Source of the DNA: an uncultured Nitrososphaerota archaeon
Lineage (GTDB): Archaea > Thermoproteota > Nitrososphaeria > Nitrososphaerales > CADDZS01
Assembly: GCA_963799845.1 (NCBI GenBank)
Contig: CAWCYI010000004.1
Coordinates: 384,001 to 448,000, forward strand
Direction of reading: 5' to 3'
DNA length: 64,000 nt
Numbering within the stretch: position 1 is the stretch's first letter; each line of letters starts with the position of its first letter. Under the pieces are notes generated by a model. It worked only from the letters and a program-made list of their open reading frames with translations, was not told the origin of the DNA and did not search any database. Of this stretch, positions 2,737-7,278 are shown piece after piece. Made by a program: the position numbers and the translations under genes.

Positions 2737-3027
2737 CTACTTACGATTTAACTTCCAAGACAGCTCGGAAGCAATCTGCTCCTTGGTCTTGCCTTTCGTG
2801 TCAATGCCCTCTTTTTGCGCGGCGACAACTAGAGGATCATCGGGAGACGGAGATGAAGCAGCTACTTGAGCAATGGGAGCATCGCTCGTTTCACCCTTCG
2901 AACCCTTTTCGAATTCCCTTCGAGCCTGACCTAGAGACCTCGCAAACTGAGGAATCCTGCTCGCTCCAAACAGAAGAACTACTACCGCGAGAATCAGTAT
3001 GATTACAACGGGATCGTCGAACCCCAA
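2737..3027 (-). CDS. tatA: Twin-arginine translocase TatA/E
   Basis: N-terminal TM followed by LLFGASRIPQFARSLGQARREFEKG. Confidence 0.92.
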   Translation of the reverse strand: MGFDDPVVIILILAVVVLLFGASRIPQFARSLGQARREFEKGSKGETSDAPIAQVAASSPSPDDPLVVAAQKEGIDTKGKTKEQIASELSWKLNRK

Positions 3028-3100
3028 CTAACTTGACCTTCCTAACCCTACAGTAGCTAGTTCCTGATATTTAAGTGCTAACCGGAATTACATCATCATT

Positions 3101-4532
3101 TTATCGGCGAAAAGAGGGGCGTTTTGGTCTTCTTTCAAACCGCTTGGACTCCCCGGATGAGTCGCGGTTGAATCTCGGCCTGTCTCGATTCCCGGAGTAT
3201 CCTCCTCCACCGGCGATATTTTCAGTGAAGCTGAAAGATCCTCCGGAAGGACGAGGAGGCCTGCTATCTTGACCGTCCGGCCGATCTCTCCGGAAGGAAG
3301 ATCTTGGACGATTCCCATAGGATCTGCGGTTTCGCTGCTGGCCGTAGTGCTGTGACTGATCGACTGGAGGCGGTTTGTATCCAGGTGGGAGAATATCCGC
3401 AACCCTCTTGATCTCAGCTTCTGTCATTCCGGCAATCCGATTGAAGTCGGGATATTCAGAATTTGATACAAGTGAAATCGCCTTCCCTGCCCTACCTGCT
3501 CTTGCAGTCCTGCCAATCCTGTGGAAGTAAGTAAGAGGATCCTGTGGGACATCGTAATTTATCACGTGACCAACTTCTGGGACGTCGATTCCTCGAGCTG
3601 CAACGTCGGTCGCGACCAGGATCTCGATGTGACCGCTGCGAAAGTTCTGCATCGCGTGTTCCCGTCTGTTCTGGGAGAGATCTCCGTGGATGGGTGCCGC
3701 TCTAAACCCTTGCGCCTGCAGTCGTTCAGCTAACCTCTGAGTCTTGATCTTGGTGGCACAGAAAATTATTCCGGATGAGATCTTGTTTTTCCTCACGTAT
3801 TCAACCAGCGCCTGAAACTTGCTCCTTTCATCAACTATGGCGTAGGACTGGTCGATTTCATCAAGTGATAGTTCGTCGCTGTCTATCAATACGTTTACTG
3901 GATGATTCATGTATCTGTCTGCGAGCCTAACTATTTCGTTAGGCATCGTCGCGGAGAATAGCGCTGTCTGACTTCCATTGGGTAATTTCCTCATGATGTA
4001 GTCGACATCGTCAATGAATCCCATATCCAGCATCCTGTCTGCCTCATCAAGGACCACAAACTGGACGTCTTGAAGATCGATTGTCCCGCGCTCAATGTGA
4101 TCAATCAATCGACCGGGAGTAGCTACAACAATCTGGGGTGTTTTTTTGCGGAGTCTCTCGATTTGCGGGGTGATGGCCTGACCGCCGTATATCGAATAAG
4201 CCCTTACGTTAGTATGCGAGCCGATCTTGTTGAATTCATCTGTAACCTGGAGAGCTCAGCTCCCTGGTAGGGACGACCACAAGCGCCTGCACGTATGGCT
4301 TCTTGCCATCAACTTTCTCGATGATCGGAATTGCATATGCCGCGGTTTTTCCTGAACCCGTGTGAGCTTGCCCTATGACGTCCTTTGCTTCCATTAGAGG
4401 TGGTATCGCCTGAGCCTGTATAGGAAACATCGTCTTGTAGCCGATTTCGTGTAGGCTCTTGAGTACTTCTGGTCTCAACCTGAGGCTATCAAAAACTGGA
4501 GCAGCGCTTTCTTCAATACTGTTTGTTTGCAT
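3101..4532 (-). CDS. DEAD-box RNA helicase, split by one extra base at ~4257
   Basis: Q motif (FPIQ), HTGSGKT, PTREL; removing one base gives PTRELALQV...ATPGRLIDH; DEAD, SAT, HRIGRTAR; R/G/S-rich tail. Confidence 0.93.
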
Positions 4533-4550
4533 TTTCTTTCTTTCACTTTT

Positions 4551-4683
4551 CTTGGTTTTTTCCTAAATCTAATTGAACCTAGGAGCAGAAAATAGTTCGG
4601 AGGTCTTGCAACCCCTCTGTCTTCCGCTGTTGCCGATAAACGGCCCATTTCAATTGCGGAGCCTCTCATTGAGGCAAACCAAA
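4551..4683 (-). ncRNA. Candidate structured cis-regulatory RNA in the helicase 5' leader
   Basis: Closing stem plus four enclosed hairpins, a GCAA tetraloop, and G-U pairs that form only on the minus strand; ends ~19 nt before the ATG. Confidence 0.6.
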
Positions 4684-4794
4684 GGTTACGATTAGTGAGC
4701 TGAATTTGAAAGCGTCCAAAATCGTCTTATCGGTCTGTCATACGTCAAAAAGGGGCTCTTAATCTAGTCTTCAAACAGTCATAGTATCTTTGCA

Positions 4795-4808
4795 TATTTA
4801 AAGTTTGA
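4795..4808 (-). promoter_or_regulatory. Putative BRE/TATA (TCAAAC-TTTAAATA) for the helicase, implying a ~240-nt leader
   Basis: Consensus archaeal TATA on the minus strand. Confidence 0.45.
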
Positions 4809-5085
4809 AATATCGTGAATAGGGTTGCTTCGAGCCTTTTAGACTCGATCCGTTGCTGAGGGCCGAAATAATTCCCCGGCTTAAGGCGGATTTTAGGCGG
4901 TGGGTCGGGATTGATAATGGTACCCGATATATGGTATTTAGGCATAACCCGAACTGGGCCTGTCCCAGAATTTAGGCATTAGATCTAATTGTTTTATGCG
5001 AAACCGCGATCGGTCGTCTTCGATTTTTCTAGCGCGAAGGATAAACCATATATTTGATAGGTGCCCTCATAGTGCTTGCCCTAAA

Positions 5086-5313
5086 ATGGTAACAATATGC
5101 CCAAAATGCGGCAAGAAAGCTTGGAAGCCGTACAAATTTGTAATAAAAGGAAAGAGCGGAAAGAATTACACATATCTTGTCTACCGTCACAATGAGAAGA
5201 AAAGGCACACTCCACGAAAATGCTATGTTGCCCAGAAAAAGGCAAAGCCGAAACTGGCCGTGAAGAAGAGCGCAAAAAGTTCTCCAACTCACTCTAAGTC
5301 TCGAAAGCGGTAG
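5086..5313 (+). CDS. Small very basic CPxCG...H...C zinc-ribbon protein with a Lys-rich tail; putative nucleic-acid binding
   Basis: MVTICPKCGK...YLVYRH...RKCYV; TATA-like CATATATT ~30 nt upstream of ATG 5086. Confidence 0.7.
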   Translation: MVTICPKCGKKAWKPYKFVIKGKSGKNYTYLVYRHNEKKRHTPRKCYVAQKKAKPKLAVKKSAKSSPTHSKSRKR

Positions 5314-5371
5314 ATAGTCTGCGGTAAACTTGTCGTGATGTGGCCTCGGATTTGTCCGGGGCTAAATTTTT

Positions 5372-5866
5372 CTAACTTTCTTTTCGGGTCATCGCGTAGA
5401 GGTTCGTATTTTTTCTGATGGCGCTCGTATATTCTATCAGATTCTGAAGTTCCTGCTTGTTCAACACCTTCATCAGCTTCGCGATCTCTCGCCGGTGGGA
5501 GGTGTATATTCTCTTGAACAACCTGGAGCCAGTCCCGGTAAGTTCAACCTTGACCAATCTGCGATCGCTTGAATCTCTGAGACGCCTGACGTATCGCAGC
5601 TTTTCCAGATTATCCACGATCGTCGTTATATTTGCGAATGTGACTATCATTTCTTTCCCGATCTCGCTCATGGTAAGCTGGCCTTCGCGCGAGTTTCCGA
5701 TAACTCGAAGCACCGTATATTGGGGCGGGGTCAAACCATACTGTCTCAGATCAGACATTATGTGGGAGTATACTATCTTGTAAGTGTTGGAGAGGCTGCT
5801 CCACGCCGTGTTCTCAATTGGTTCTAGATCGACATTCTTCACAGAGGAGTTCTCGATTCTTTGCAT
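5372..5866 (-). CDS. MarR-family transcriptional regulator
   Basis: GLTPPQYTVL, ITTIVDNLEK, DRRLVKVELT. Confidence 0.92.
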   Translation of the reverse strand: MQRIENSSVKNVDLEPIENTAWSSLSNTYKIVYSHIMSDLRQYGLTPPQYTVLRVIGNSREGQLTMSEIGKEMIVTFANITTIVDNLEKLRYVRRLRDSSDRRLVKVELTGTGSRLFKRIYTSHRREIAKLMKVLNKQELQNLIEYTSAIRKNTNLYAMTRKES

Positions 5867-5976
5867 TTCTTAATGGTCCAACTCTCTACCCTTGACTCTA
5901 AATTGCAGTGGAAATCGAAGAGCAGTGCAACCGATTGTTCAGAGATCATAATGAACTTTGTTGCGTTCAGCAATTC

Positions 5977-7278
5977 CTAATTGAAATCTGTTATCCTTCT
6001 CTGTTCAAGTCCTTGCTTCAAAAGCTCCGAGTTTTCGATCCAGTGCTTCCTAGAGATCATGAAATTTGTGCAGGCAAAATCAAGCGCCTGGCCTATGGTG
6101 TCGAATCTCCGATAATTACCGGCAAGAAGGGTCCTGATGCTCTCTCTGACATTCCATACCCCGACAGGCAAGATGTAGCCGGGATGAATTTCGCGCAGCA
6201 TTATCGCCCCAGATTGCCTCCTGACCTGTGAAAGATATTCGGAGACCGCAAATCGCGTCGAATAGTAACAACCGCCCGGCTTTGCATAAGTTTTCCTTCC
6301 GGAGTAACCTTCGAAGTCGCCGATCATTTCCGGCTTTGAACCGAACTGATTCCATGCCGTACCCGAATGCCAGGCCTCTATCCATTCGAATTTCCATCTT
6401 TCGGGAGTGAGAATTGCGACGTAGACGTTGTCCAGGTTCGTCAGTGTGAACACTCGGAATTCATCGACTGTTTGGTAGTCCTTGATTTCTTCCATCAGCC
6501 GGAGCGACAGAGTGCTGTCAACGGCGGTTATGCTCCACCTCGTTGGGACTAGCTTCCTCCTTTTTCTCTGGCCGAAAACTCCTACCGAGAACGCCTTTTC
6601 AAGTTTGGAAAAGATGACCCCATCACGGTAAAGGGAAAAGACTGCATCCGCGGCTTTCAAATCTCCATCGTAGTACGCCTTTTCCATTCTTTGGTCGACC
6701 GAGATGTTGCCGCTAGCCTTGAACGCTTTCATGGGAGCGCTCGGTCCGAAGGGCTGACTGTTTTCGCTGAAGGAGACTCGATTGACGGGCTTTTTTGAAA
6801 GGAGCAGCTCAGAGTCAGCCGATTTGGTGGACATCGCAATCTCCTGAAGCGTATCCAATAGTCTGGATCCCGTCTGCGCATCTGTAACGTTTGCTCTGAG
6901 GCATCCACGAACAAGAGTGTATCTGTAACCAACAATCTCCTCAATCGTCTTGCCCTTCCACAACTCTGGAGTGTCGAGGAACCCTGTATCGCCGTGGAGC
7001 GCAGGAACCATTGGTCCGATGAACACTTTTGGATAACCGAATCTTCCTACGAAGACTCCGGGAGGAGTTGATCCCTGAATTATGTCAGAACTCAGGAATG
7101 CTTGGGCGTTTTTCGCAAACCCCTCGGCCTTCGTCAAGATTGGACACTTTGGCTTCCCACAAAGGAGCTTCGCGCCGCGACAGGCAAGGCACATTTCAGC
7201 GGTAGGCCTTTCAATGACCAGTTTCGTCCTCCACTCCGGATGAGCGAATTTCGGAGCAAACCATGGAATCGAAGACAA
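5977..7278 (-). CDS. nreA: Archaeal Nre DNA repair protein
   Basis: CLACRG..LCGK..CP, PPGVFVG..GYPKV, LVPTRWSITAVD, C-terminal PIP box QRRITDF. Confidence 0.93.
   Translation of the reverse strand: MSSIPWFAPKFAHPEWRTKLVIERPTAEMCLACRGAKLLCGKPKCPILTKAEGFAKNAQAFLSSDIIQGSTPPGVFVGRFGYPKVFIGPMVPALHGDTGFLDTPELWKGKTIEEIVGYRYTLVRGCLRANVTDAQTGSRLLDTLQEIAMSTKSADSELLLSKKPVNRVSFSENSQPFGPSAPMKAFKASGNISVDQRMEKAYYDGDLKAADAVFSLYRDGVIFSKLEKAFSVGVFGQRKRRKLVPTRWSITAVDSTLSLRLMEEIKDYQTVDEFRVFTLTNLDNVYVAILTPERWKFEWIEAWHSGTAWNQFGSKPEMIGDFEGYSGRKTYAKPGGCYYSTRFAVSEYLSQVRRQSGAIMLREIHPGYILPVGVWNVRESIRTLLAGNYRRFDTIGQALDFACTNFMISRKHWIENSELLKQGLEQRRITDFN

What the first reader, a model, noticed from the sequence alone, without database searches (positions are those of the whole stretch)
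4551..4683. Multi-branched structured RNA in the leader of a DEAD-box helicase
Seen on the minus strand: a closing stem UUUGGUUU/AAACCAAG (4676-4683 with 4551-4558) encloses four hairpins. These are GCCUC/GAGGC (4661-4675); UCCGC/GCGGA with inner GCCG/CGGC (4623-4660); GGGGUU-GCAA-GACCUC (a GNRA tetraloop); and a 9-bp UCCUAGGUU/GAUUUAGGA (4561-4584). Several G-U pairs work only on the coding strand. The structure ends ~19 nt before the ATG, and the best TATA (4795-4802) implies a ~240-nt leader, whereas many other genes here look leaderless. Known: DEAD-box helicases often have long, cold-regulated leaders. Inference: an undescribed archaeal cis-element, either a thermometer or an autoregulatory switch unwound by the helicase itself.
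Basis: partly seen in the sequence, partly recalled or inferred. Interest (0 to 1): 0.75.

Follow-up and report, generated by a model that had tools for sequence, protein, structure and literature searches.

The report
Structured leader RNA of helicase gene
The RNA-helicase gene of this soil archaeon sits behind a folded, roughly 240-base leader that its relatives also carry, but the conserved fold differs from the one first drawn, and how it controls the gene is untested.

Summary
The genome's consensus TATA box (4803-4795) lies about 270 nt upstream of the ATG (4532). Sequence conservation starts about 24 nt after the TATA.

Nineteen distinct leaders of the same genus support three elements:
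- P1 is a 7-bp helix joining the first transcript bases (4767-4761) to 4569-4563, just before the purine-rich ribosome-binding stretch.
- P2 is a near-invariant 100-nt hairpin (4758-4659).
- P3 is a helix (4655-4649 with 4577-4571) enclosing variable hairpins.

Its 9-bp hairpin is real here (0.90) but specific to this lineage. GCCG/CGGC and the GNRA hairpin hold.

Sister genera and two other Nitrososphaerales families show the same "5' end pairs just before the start region" layout with unrelated sequences. No Rfam family matches. True covariation is sparse. The window's own copy does not predict P1 or P3, and its helicase gene carries a 1-nt frameshift.

The function is inferred: cis control of helicase synthesis by feedback or cold. 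The start region is never sequestered, so this is not a classic thermometer. Earlier unchecked scan notes report helicase leaders in other lineages.

The parts
4795..4809 (-). Promoter: TTCAAA (BRE-like) plus CTTTAAATA (TATA box).
   Evidence: Invariant AAAC[CT]TTAAATA in 6 of 6 aligned relatives. Found at a fixed distance in 18 of 19 further loci; L057 lacks it. TAAATA is the most enriched hexamer 28-44 nt before ATGs genome-wide, 51 seen against 8.2 expected.
4770..4772 (-). Predicted transcription start (not mapped).
   Evidence: About 23 nt after the TATA; this spacing is recalled archaeal promoter geometry. Conservation begins here. An RNA-library contig reaches 4756.
4761..4767 (-). P1 5' strand, CUAGAUU (CUAAAUU in relatives).
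   Evidence: 98.5% of cells paired on 19 leaders. All 7 bp are in the unconstrained MFE of 13 of 19 leaders. Probability is only 0.02 in this window's copy.
4659..4758 (-). P2, the conserved long hairpin domain. Helices: GAGCC/GGCUC, CUU/GAG, CAGACCGA/UUGGUUUG, ACGAUU/AAUCGU.
   Evidence: RNAalifold consensus. 98-100% of cells paired against 22-46% when slid. Probability 0.94-0.99 in the window. One pair covaries: GC, AU and UG. The covariance model finds one copy per genome, in this genus only.
4649..4655 (-). P3 5' strand, AAUUGAA.
   Evidence: Pairs with 4571-4577. 13 of 18 relatives have a helix of at least 6 bp here, a score reached by no more than 1.7% of 234 internal control windows. 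P3 closure appears in the MFE of 13 of 19 leaders.
4578..4648 (-). Variable insert, 77-141 nt between P2 and the ATTTAG motif in relatives. Contains the GCCG/CGGC hairpin (4632-4644) and the GGGGUU-GCAA-GACCUC hairpin (4600-4615).
   Evidence: Length and sequence vary. A first hairpin sits at the same place with different stem sequences in relatives, read by eye. Probabilities 1.0 and 0.73 in the window.
4571..4577 (-). P3 3' strand, UUCAAUU.
   Evidence: Part of the conserved TCAAT..ATTTAG block. See P3 5' strand.
4563..4569 (-). P1 3' strand, GAUUUAG.
   Evidence: ATTTAG is invariant in 19 of 19 leaders. It is not a promoter variant: ATTTAG 9 against 9.6 expected and TTTAGG 6 against 5.7 at promoter positions.
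4561..4584 (-). Lineage-specific 9-bp hairpin UCCUAGGUU/GAUUUAGGA, which competes with P1 and P3.
   Evidence: Probability 0.90 in the window. Only 62.6% of cells paired in relatives, and the 5' arm is not conserved.
4533..4560 (-). Unpaired purine-rich stretch with the conserved AGUGA (4543-4547), a likely ribosome-binding site.
   Evidence: AAGTGAA lies about 10-14 nt before the start codon in most relatives and in families f4, f14 and f15. It is unpaired in all MFE folds. The SD reading is recalled and untested.
3101..4532 (-). DEAD-box RNA helicase gene, split by one extra G at 4257.
   Evidence: ORFs 4236-4532 and 3101-4255. The two fragments meet at position 58 of the Pfam DEAD profile. 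15 of 15 relatives read PTRELA(L/M)QV in frame.

Best explanation
The flagged stretch is part of the ~240-nt 5' untranslated leader of the DEAD-box helicase mRNA. The leader is transcribed from a canonical archaeal TATA box at 4803-4795.

Comparative evidence indicates a three-helix fold:
- P1 is a short closing helix. It tucks the first bases of the transcript against the segment just before the purine-rich ribosome-binding stretch.
- P2 is a near-invariant 100-nt hairpin.
- P3 is a helix carrying variable hairpins.

The start region itself stays single-stranded.

I think the leader acts in cis to set how much helicase is made. The most likely route is negative feedback or cold-dependent control of mRNA stability or translation. 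In the closed form the 5' end is hidden and the mRNA is stable and translatable. Opening of the short P1 helix, by the helicase itself or by warming, exposes the 5' end or lets the leader refold.

Shown here: the promoter, the long conserved non-coding leader, its strand, its folding potential, and the recurrence of the layout in relatives.

Inferred: every regulatory step, including that the helicase or temperature is the signal.
For: Promoter and leader:
- The TATA is invariant in relatives and equals the genome's promoter consensus.
- Other genes have their TATA 28-44 nt before the ATG.
- Block 4771-4659 is 83% identical to G004, against 75% for the coding sequence.
- Indels of 1-6 nt occur and no conserved ORF is present.
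- A 220-nt contig from a peat metatranscriptome (94% identical) spans 4756-4537 without a break.

Fold in this genus:
- My P1-P2-P3 model keeps 92% of cells paired on 19 leaders, against 23-46% when slid.
- Unconstrained MFE folds contain P1 in 13, P2 in 14 and P3 in 13 of 19 leaders.
- 5'-to-3' closure appears in 13 of 19 real leaders against 43 of 380 shuffles.
- All 21 family leaders have negative z, and 13 are at or below -2.
- Two invariant G-U pairs and all one-sided changes fit the sense strand only.

Same layout with other sequences:
- De novo RNAalifold in sister genus g2 gives AGUACAU/AUGUACU plus two enclosed domains: 85.6% paired against 43-46% slid, and 13 compensatory pairs reached by 5 of 500 shuffles.
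- In g3, an 11-bp helix was matched by 0 of 190 cross-genus controls.
- Families f4 and f15 give the same layout in de novo consensus folds.

Precedent: E. coli DeaD is autoregulated through its 838-nt 5' UTR (PMC7430678, abstract read).
Against: - No transcription start, expression or temperature data exist for this organism. The contig comes from a relative, and contigs cannot show RNA ends or exclude DNA carry-over.
- Covariation inside the genus is thin. P2 has one compensatory pair in 26 and P1 has none.
- The 7-bp P1 is no stronger than chance: 39.5% of 190 cross-genus control pairings score as high.
- RNAalifold on the 19 full leaders recovers only P2.
- Part of P2 was fixed by the search pattern used to collect sequences.
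- My model was drawn from the same sequences it was counted on.
- In the window's own copy P1 and P3 have probability 0.02, and its helicase gene is frameshifted.
- The P1 5' strand resembles the motif GCCTAAAT, which recurs 1-3 times upstream of the TATA. Its conservation could therefore be at the DNA level.
- 5 of 18 leaders have a weak P3.
Confidence: 0.55

Rival explanations
1. A closing stem 4676-4683/4551-4558 encloses four hairpins and acts as a thermometer or helicase-unwound switch next to the start codon.
For: All stems are complementary. The isolated 133 nt fold with z -3.84. UUUGGUUU is invariant, and an A-rich partner exists in all relatives. GCCUC/GAGGC is 100% kept with one C-to-U wobble change. 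It could be an alternative conformer to P2.
Against: The closing stem, the GCCUC hairpin and the UCCGC stem have probability 0.00 in the full leader at 10-37 C. Their bases are used by the better conserved P2. AAACCAA is present in only about 4 of 15 sequence types (read by eye). Overall 67% of cells are paired against 38-52% when slid. The 9-bp hairpin's 5' arm is not conserved.
Confidence: 0.07
2. The conserved ~205-nt piece (4771 to about 4563) is a stable small RNA in its own right, with its ends joined by P1 as in many stable RNAs. It is made from its own promoter and either processed from, or merely read through into, the helicase mRNA.
For: It has its own strong promoter. The 5' and 3' ends pair. 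P2 sequence is conserved in loops as well as stems, more than an mRNA leader usually needs. The RNA contig stops at 4537, 5 nt before the ATG (contig ends are weak evidence).
Against: There is no run of four or more T between the ATTTAG motif and the start codon in 0 of 18 distinct sequences (read by eye). No promoter-like hexamer lies before the ATG, and ATTTAG is not enriched at promoter positions. The element always sits directly before this one gene, one copy per genome. In families f4 and f15 the same layout is only about 85-110 nt and abuts the start region.
Confidence: 0.15
3. The conservation is mainly at the DNA level. Binding sites for a transcription factor, for example the neighbouring MarR-type regulator, lie around and downstream of the start site.
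For: GCCTAAAT occurs 1-3 times within 260 nt upstream of the TATA in all 19 loci that have the TATA. GACTAAATT at the transcript start and the inverted AATTTAGG resemble it. A MarR gene is a conserved neighbour in all three genera.
Against: 115 nt of near-invariant sequence downstream of the start is far more than a binding site needs. Invariant G-U pairs and wobble-preserving changes fit only the sense RNA. Sister genera keep the end-to-end complementarity with unrelated sequences, including G-U pairs. Folding energies lie below shuffles.
Confidence: 0.1
4. P2 is a binding platform for another factor, such as the conserved small zinc-ribbon protein encoded divergently or a small ligand. The leader then reports that factor rather than helicase activity or temperature.
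For: P2 loops and bulges are as conserved as its stems. The 75-aa basic zinc-ribbon protein is 80-92% identical across three genera and always adjacent. Unchecked scan notes report small zinc proteins beside helicase genes elsewhere.
Against: No binding data exist. P2 is confined to one genus while the zinc-ribbon gene spans the family. No known riboswitch class matches, and the regulated gene is not metabolic.
Confidence: 0.1

Closest known systems
E. coli deaD/csdA 5' UTR (Ojha and Jain 2020, PMC7430678; abstract read)
   Same: An unusually long 5' UTR sits in front of a DEAD-box helicase gene. There the helicase lowers its own expression through that UTR, and the authors propose it remodels its own mRNA.
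   Different: That is a bacterial 838-nt UTR acting through RNase access and Rho-dependent termination. I recall that archaea lack Rho. There is no sequence or fold similarity. Here feedback is only inferred.
Cold-shock leaders: E. coli cspA 5' UTR and cyanobacterial crhC 5' UTR (review PMC1484253; passages read)
   Same: These are long 5' UTRs needed for transcript stabilisation at low temperature. crhC encodes a cold-induced RNA helicase.
   Different: No match to the Rfam models. The start region here is never sequestered in predicted folds. Temperature response is unknown.
Methanococcoides burtonii deaD, a cold-regulated archaeal DEAD-box helicase (Lim et al. 2000; seen only as a citation in PMC1484253 and PMC8397731; that it has a long leader is my recollection)
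   Same: An archaeal DEAD-box helicase gene tied to cold. PMC8397731 (passages read) lists a CshA-type cold-shock helicase in all Nitrosopumilales clades examined.
   Different: A different phylum. No conserved leader fold has been described to my knowledge. I did not read that paper.
Helicase-gene leaders noted earlier in this scan (e1-5526241 Heimdallarchaea, e1-1549337 Gottesmanbacteria; AI notes, unchecked)
   Same: Structured leaders of about 125-150 nt start at +1 of DEAD-box helicase genes, match no Rfam family and can adopt alternative folds.
   Different: These are other lineages with two-hairpin designs. Here the leader is longer, has an end-to-end closing helix, and has a genus-specific 100-nt domain.

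Membership tests
Any curated RNA family (Rfam 15) | A covariance-model match near the family's gathering score. | tested here: not met
   A scan at E up to 10 over 3000-6500 found only ceN28, 20.9 bits against a gathering score of 70, E 0.45, at 4766-4847. A gathering-level scan of 20 ortholog loci found only one tRNA.
SD-masking RNA thermometer (ROSE, fourU, cspA-like) | The ribosome-binding site or start codon is paired in a heat-labile helix. | tested here: not met
   4533-4560 is unpaired in MFE folds at 10, 25 and 37 C, and likewise in g2, g3, f4 and f15 leaders.
SD-masking RNA thermometer (ROSE, fourU, cspA-like) | Expression changes with temperature. | not testable with these tools
   Predicted P1 probability rises on cooling in some relatives (L046 0.15 to 0.93, L050 0.49 to 0.93) and falls in others (L059 0.93 to 0.31).
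Autoregulatory 5' UTR of a DEAD-box helicase gene (E. coli deaD type) | An unusually long leader is transcribed with the helicase gene. | tested here: met
   The consensus TATA lies about 270 nt before the ATG, against 28-44 nt for most genes. No T-run or promoter lies between. An RNA-library contig spans 4756-4537. The transcription start itself is not mapped.
Autoregulatory 5' UTR of a DEAD-box helicase gene (E. coli deaD type) | Helicase-dependent negative feedback that needs the UTR. | not testable with these tools
   Needs genetics or in vitro assays.
Free-standing small RNA gene | Its own terminator before the next gene. | tested here: not met
   0 of 18 distinct sequences have four or more T between the ATTTAG motif and the start codon (read by eye). 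T-runs inside the variable insert are not conserved.
Riboswitch | A conserved aptamer of a known class before a gene linked to the ligand. | tested here: not met
   No Rfam riboswitch hit. The gene is an RNA helicase. An unknown ligand cannot be excluded.

The most novel reading that the evidence does not exclude
The leader is a helicase-sensing device used across Nitrososphaerales. The short end-to-end helix hides the mRNA's 5' end, and at 7-12 bp it is the size of duplex that DEAD-box proteins open in one step. Surplus helicase would melt it, exposing the mRNA to decay or refolding it. This would be the first archaeal case of DEAD-box autoregulation, and of 5'-end sequestration as the control point. 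Family f1 would have added extra sensing domains (P2, P3).
Probability: 0.2. Interest if true: 0.75.

Novelty: new variant of a known kind. Interest (0 to 1): 0.5.

Why it matters
Very few cis-acting regulatory RNAs are known in archaea. How DEAD-box helicases are themselves regulated is known for only a handful of bacteria. These archaea lack the bacterial factors used in the E. coli case.

The leader has a fixed layout: the 5' end pairs just before an open start region. That layout recurs with different sequences in several Nitrososphaerales families, which include the ammonia oxidisers of soils and oceans. It gives a concrete, mutable element for testing how these archaea tune RNA remodelling, for instance in the cold.

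The present evidence is comparative and thermodynamic only, so the value is that of a well-defined candidate.

Tried and rejected
1. ATTTAGG as a proximal TATA for a leaderless helicase mRNA. Rejected for three reasons. The hexamers are not enriched at promoter positions. The distance to the start codon varies from 26 to 49 nt. Sister genera have non-TATA sequences at that place.
2. A small ORF in the leader. ATGACAGACCGATAA is not conserved, and 1-6-nt indels occur.
3. A K-turn between P2 helices. By eye there is no conserved GA/AG pairing (alignment).
4. A conserved attenuator T-run in the variable insert. It is present in some relatives only.
5. P1 strength test in this genus. It was not distinguishable from cross-genus controls.
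6. Cognate against non-cognate test for P3. The difference was small, 14.2 against 12.9.
7. RNAalifold on the full 19-leader MAFFT alignment. It recovered only P2, and the variable part is poorly aligned.
8. RNA.duplexfold gave loop-ridden duplexes and was dropped.
9. The covariance model of P2 found nothing outside genus g1: 0 of 5 g2 and 0 of 1 g3.
10. The 3' end of 16S rRNA was not found in the assembly, so the SD reading is untested.
11. RNA run X1 held only 9% of sampled words and gave 2 contigs. There was no cover at 4053-4457, so the frameshift could not be checked in RNA, and depth says nothing about expression.
12. Start-codon picking for orthologs of other families was crude. Only f4, f15 and, by eye, f14, f19 and f12 were examined.
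13. A place look-up in earlier findings returned nothing.

Full report
**The locus.**
On the minus strand a DEAD-box RNA helicase gene starts at ATG 4532-4530. Pfam finds DEAD plus Helicase_C. NCBIfam places it nearest CshA, DbpA and RhlE types, below their cut-offs.

In this genome the gene is split into ORFs 4236-4532 and 3101-4255. The two pieces meet at position 58 of the DEAD profile. Compared with 15 of 15 relatives that read PTRELA(L/M)QV in frame, the window has one extra G at 4257.

Upstream lie a 75-aa zinc-ribbon gene on the other strand, whose conserved start is at 5086, and a MarR-type regulator at 5372-5866. Record titles of matching contigs name Nitrososphaerales or Thaumarchaeota MAGs.

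**Checking the observation.**
The isolated 133 nt fold at -46.1 kcal/mol, with z -3.84 and 0 of 200 shuffles as good. The opposite strand is weaker, with z -2.48.

The window's limits were picked to fit the fold. The whole leader gives z -1.85, with 12 of 200 shuffles as good, or z -2.61 with 0 of 40.

In the full leader the partition function at 37 C gives the following (25 and 10 C are much the same):

| Element | Probability |
|---|---|
| Closing stem | 0.00 |
| GCCUC/GAGGC | 0.00 |
| UCCGC/GCGGA | 0.00 |
| GCCG/CGGC | 1.0 |
| GNRA hairpin | 0.73 |
| 9-bp hairpin 4561-4584 | 0.90 |

**Promoter and leader.**
A DNA search of 61 related genomes found the leader only in the same genus: G001, G002, G004 and G005. 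Alignment showed an invariant AAAC[CT]TTAAATA at 4806-4795. A block from about 4771 to 4655 follows, and it is at least as conserved as the coding sequence: 83% against 75% for G004.

Genome-wide, TATA-like hexamers peak 31-40 nt before the first ATG of long ORFs. The most enriched hexamer there is TAAATA, 51 seen against 8.2 expected. So the helicase TATA is a consensus promoter placed about 270 nt before its ATG.

I first suspected that the conserved ATTTAGG near 4565 was a second, proximal TATA. It is not enriched at promoter positions, and its distance to the start codon varies from 26 to 49 nt. No run of four or more T separates it from the start codon in 18 distinct sequences (by eye).

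One peat metatranscriptome run held a 220-nt contig, 94% identical, that covers 4756-4537 in one piece. A second contig, 100% identical, lies inside the coding sequence at 3792-4020. Contigs cannot show RNA ends or exclude DNA, so this is only consistent with read-through.

**More sequences.**
A covariance model of the conserved block hit 6 of 7 genomes of genus g1. The miss, G003, is 61% complete. It hit 0 of 5 g2 and 0 of 1 g3 genomes, with one copy per genome.

Pattern scans gave 15 metagenome and 8 genome stretches. The model matched 23 of the 25 sources searched: the window, L041 and 21 of those stretches. The two Marinilactibacillus stretches did not match, so I treat them as chance. The 23 matches reduce to 20 distinct sequences. 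These were ascertained with a pattern inside P2, so invariance there is partly by construction.

**The conserved fold in this genus.**
RNAalifold gives a long imperfect hairpin, P2 (4758-4659).
- 98.8% of cells are paired, against 22-44% when partners are slid.
- Only one pair shows compensatory change (GC 17, AU 1, UG 1, broken 1).
- All one-sided changes keep wobble pairs on the sense strand.
- Two G-U pairs are invariant.

P2 uses UUUGGUUUG and GAGGCUC.

Downstream, AAUUGAA (4655-4649) can pair with UUCAAUU (4577-4571). This is P3, and it encloses a stretch that is 77-141 nt long in relatives. 13 of 18 relatives have a helix of at least 6 bp there, a score reached by no more than 1.7% of 234 control windows. 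5 of 18 are weak.

Inside P3, a first hairpin occupies the same place with different stems: GCCG/CGGC, CCGCUG/CAGCGG, CCGCC/GGCGG, UUGCC/GGCAA and ACCCG/CGGGU (read by eye).

Finally, CUAAAUU at the transcript start (4767-4761; CUAGAUU here) is the reverse complement of AAUUUAG (4569-4563). This is P1.

On 19 full leaders this model keeps 92% of cells paired, against 23-46% when slid. My model was derived from these sequences, which favours it.

Independent of the alignment, unconstrained MFE folds contain all 7 bp of P1 in 13, P2 in 14 and P3 closure in 13 of 19 leaders. End-to-end closure occurs in 13 of 19 real leaders against 43 of 380 shuffles. The sequences are kin, so these are not independent trials.

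**Evidence against the model.**
- P1 has no covariation within the genus.
- As a bare 7-bp A/U helix, P1 is matched or beaten by 39.5% of 190 cross-genus control pairings.
- RNAalifold on the full alignment does not find P1 or P3.
- The window's own copy gives P1 and P3 a probability of 0.02, because its lineage-specific 9-bp hairpin wins.
- Its closest relative, L057, has a replaced 5' end and no TATA at the usual place.
- GCCTAAAT, which resembles the P1 5' strand, recurs 1-3 times upstream of the TATA in all 19 loci with a TATA. A DNA-level reading of that motif stays open.

**Beyond the genus.**
Helicase orthologs of sister genera (63-71% identical) also sit 318-471 nt behind a GCTTAAATA or CTTATATAA box.

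De novo RNAalifold on the five g2 leaders predicts the same topology with unrelated sequences:
- AGUACAU at the 5' end pairs with AUGUACU just before the A-rich start region.
- A GGCAAAGG.CC/GG.CUUUUGCC helix closes a first domain.
- A GCAUAGG plus GA-rich strand pairs with a CU-rich strand plus CUAUGC, closing a second domain.
- 85.6% of cells are paired against 43-46% slid, with 13 compensatory pairs, reached by 5 of 500 shuffles.

The end-to-end helix is 12 bp in G009 and 11 bp in the g3 genome G008, with 0 of 190 controls as strong. It is 9 bp in G007 (5.8% of controls), 7 bp in G010 and G011 (25%), and not found in G012 by this measure. MFE folds show end-to-end pairing in 5 of these 6 leaders, G012 included and G011 not.

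Across the order, 47 of 81 genomes have an ortholog at E up to 1e-80. In families f4 and f15 the leader is only about 85-110 nt. De novo consensus folds again pair its first bases with the segment just before a shared AAGUGAAAA and the start codon, which is often UUG. Families f14, f19 and f12 look similar by eye only.

All 21 leaders of family f1 fold below their shuffles, and 13 have z at or below -2. No locus matches an Rfam family.

**What it most likely does.**
The structure is a leader whose 5' end is tucked into a short helix beside an always-open, purine-rich start region. This rules out the usual SD-masking thermometer design.

The best precedent is E. coli DeaD, which represses itself through its 838-nt 5' UTR by mRNA decay and Rho termination (PMC7430678, abstract). 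Cold-shock leaders that stabilise cspA and crhC mRNAs in the cold are related cases (PMC1484253, passages). CshA-type helicases are counted as cold-adaptation genes in marine Thaumarchaeota (PMC8397731, passages).

I therefore favour cis control of mRNA stability or translation through opening and closing of P1, by the helicase or by temperature. That archaeal 5'-to-3' exonucleases need a free 5' end is recalled knowledge, and nothing here tests it.

My searches turned up no description of this leader. The library lacks most subscription papers, and I read no supplements.

**Earlier scan notes and unpublished data.**
Earlier notes of this scan report structured leaders before helicase genes in Heimdallarchaea, Gottesmanbacteria and others, and small zinc proteins beside such genes. 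These are unchecked AI notes. One pointed me to the deaD paper, whose abstract I then read. I confirmed here only that the zinc-ribbon gene is a conserved neighbour in this family.

One row of alignments A1-A3, and one genome in the counts, come from G001. That genome is flagged unpublished. No conclusion rests on it alone.

Noticed in passing
window 4257 (minus strand), within 3101-4532: The helicase gene has one extra G (GAGCT-G-AGCT) that splits it into 98-aa and 384-aa frames. 15 of 15 relatives are in frame. This is either an assembly error or a recent pseudogene. The RNA contigs did not cover the site.
   Followed up: partly
window 4970-4977, 4936-4943, 4890-4898 (minus strand): Three sense-strand copies of GCCTAAA(T/A) lie upstream of the helicase TATA. 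1-3 copies occur in all 19 related loci that have the TATA. The motif is not over-represented genome-wide: 66 seen against about 70 expected per strand. It may be a regulator binding site. It resembles the first bases of the leader.
   Followed up: partly
window 5086-5313 (+): A 75-aa basic zinc-ribbon protein (MVTICPKCG...) matches no Pfam or NCBIfam family. It is 80-92% identical across all three genera of the family, which is more conserved than the helicase. It is always divergent from the helicase leader, with a MarR gene behind it. The annotated-looking ATG at 4996 is probably not its start.
   Followed up: partly
L071-L077 (genera g2, g3): Sister genera carry even longer helicase leaders (about 290-445 nt) with their own conserved blocks. 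These include a GA-rich strand paired to a CU-rich strand, and upstream repeats of TTAGGGCA/TTAAGGCA.
   Followed up: partly
L092 (G023, family f12): In a complete ~1.6-Mb genome the helicase leader follows a tRNA gene. By eye it can form two mutually exclusive hairpins: AAUGACGG/CUGUCAUU or UAAGCAAUGA/UCAUUGCUUA.
   Followed up: no
L057 (metagenome contig): The closest relative of the window's leader has a different sequence in place of the promoter and the first ~20 leader bases, so it loses the 5' arms of P1 and P2 helix 1. The rest is about 94% alike. This may be a rearrangement or a chimeric contig.
   Followed up: no
G005 contigs C138, C171, C198: This MAG holds two diverged copies of the leader, and two helicase matches on separate short contigs. 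This is most simply strain mixing in the bin.
   Followed up: no
window 4766-4847 (minus strand): A weak Rfam match to the nematode C/D snoRNA ceN28 (20.9 bits, gathering score 70, E 0.45) covers the promoter. I take it as chance.
   Followed up: no
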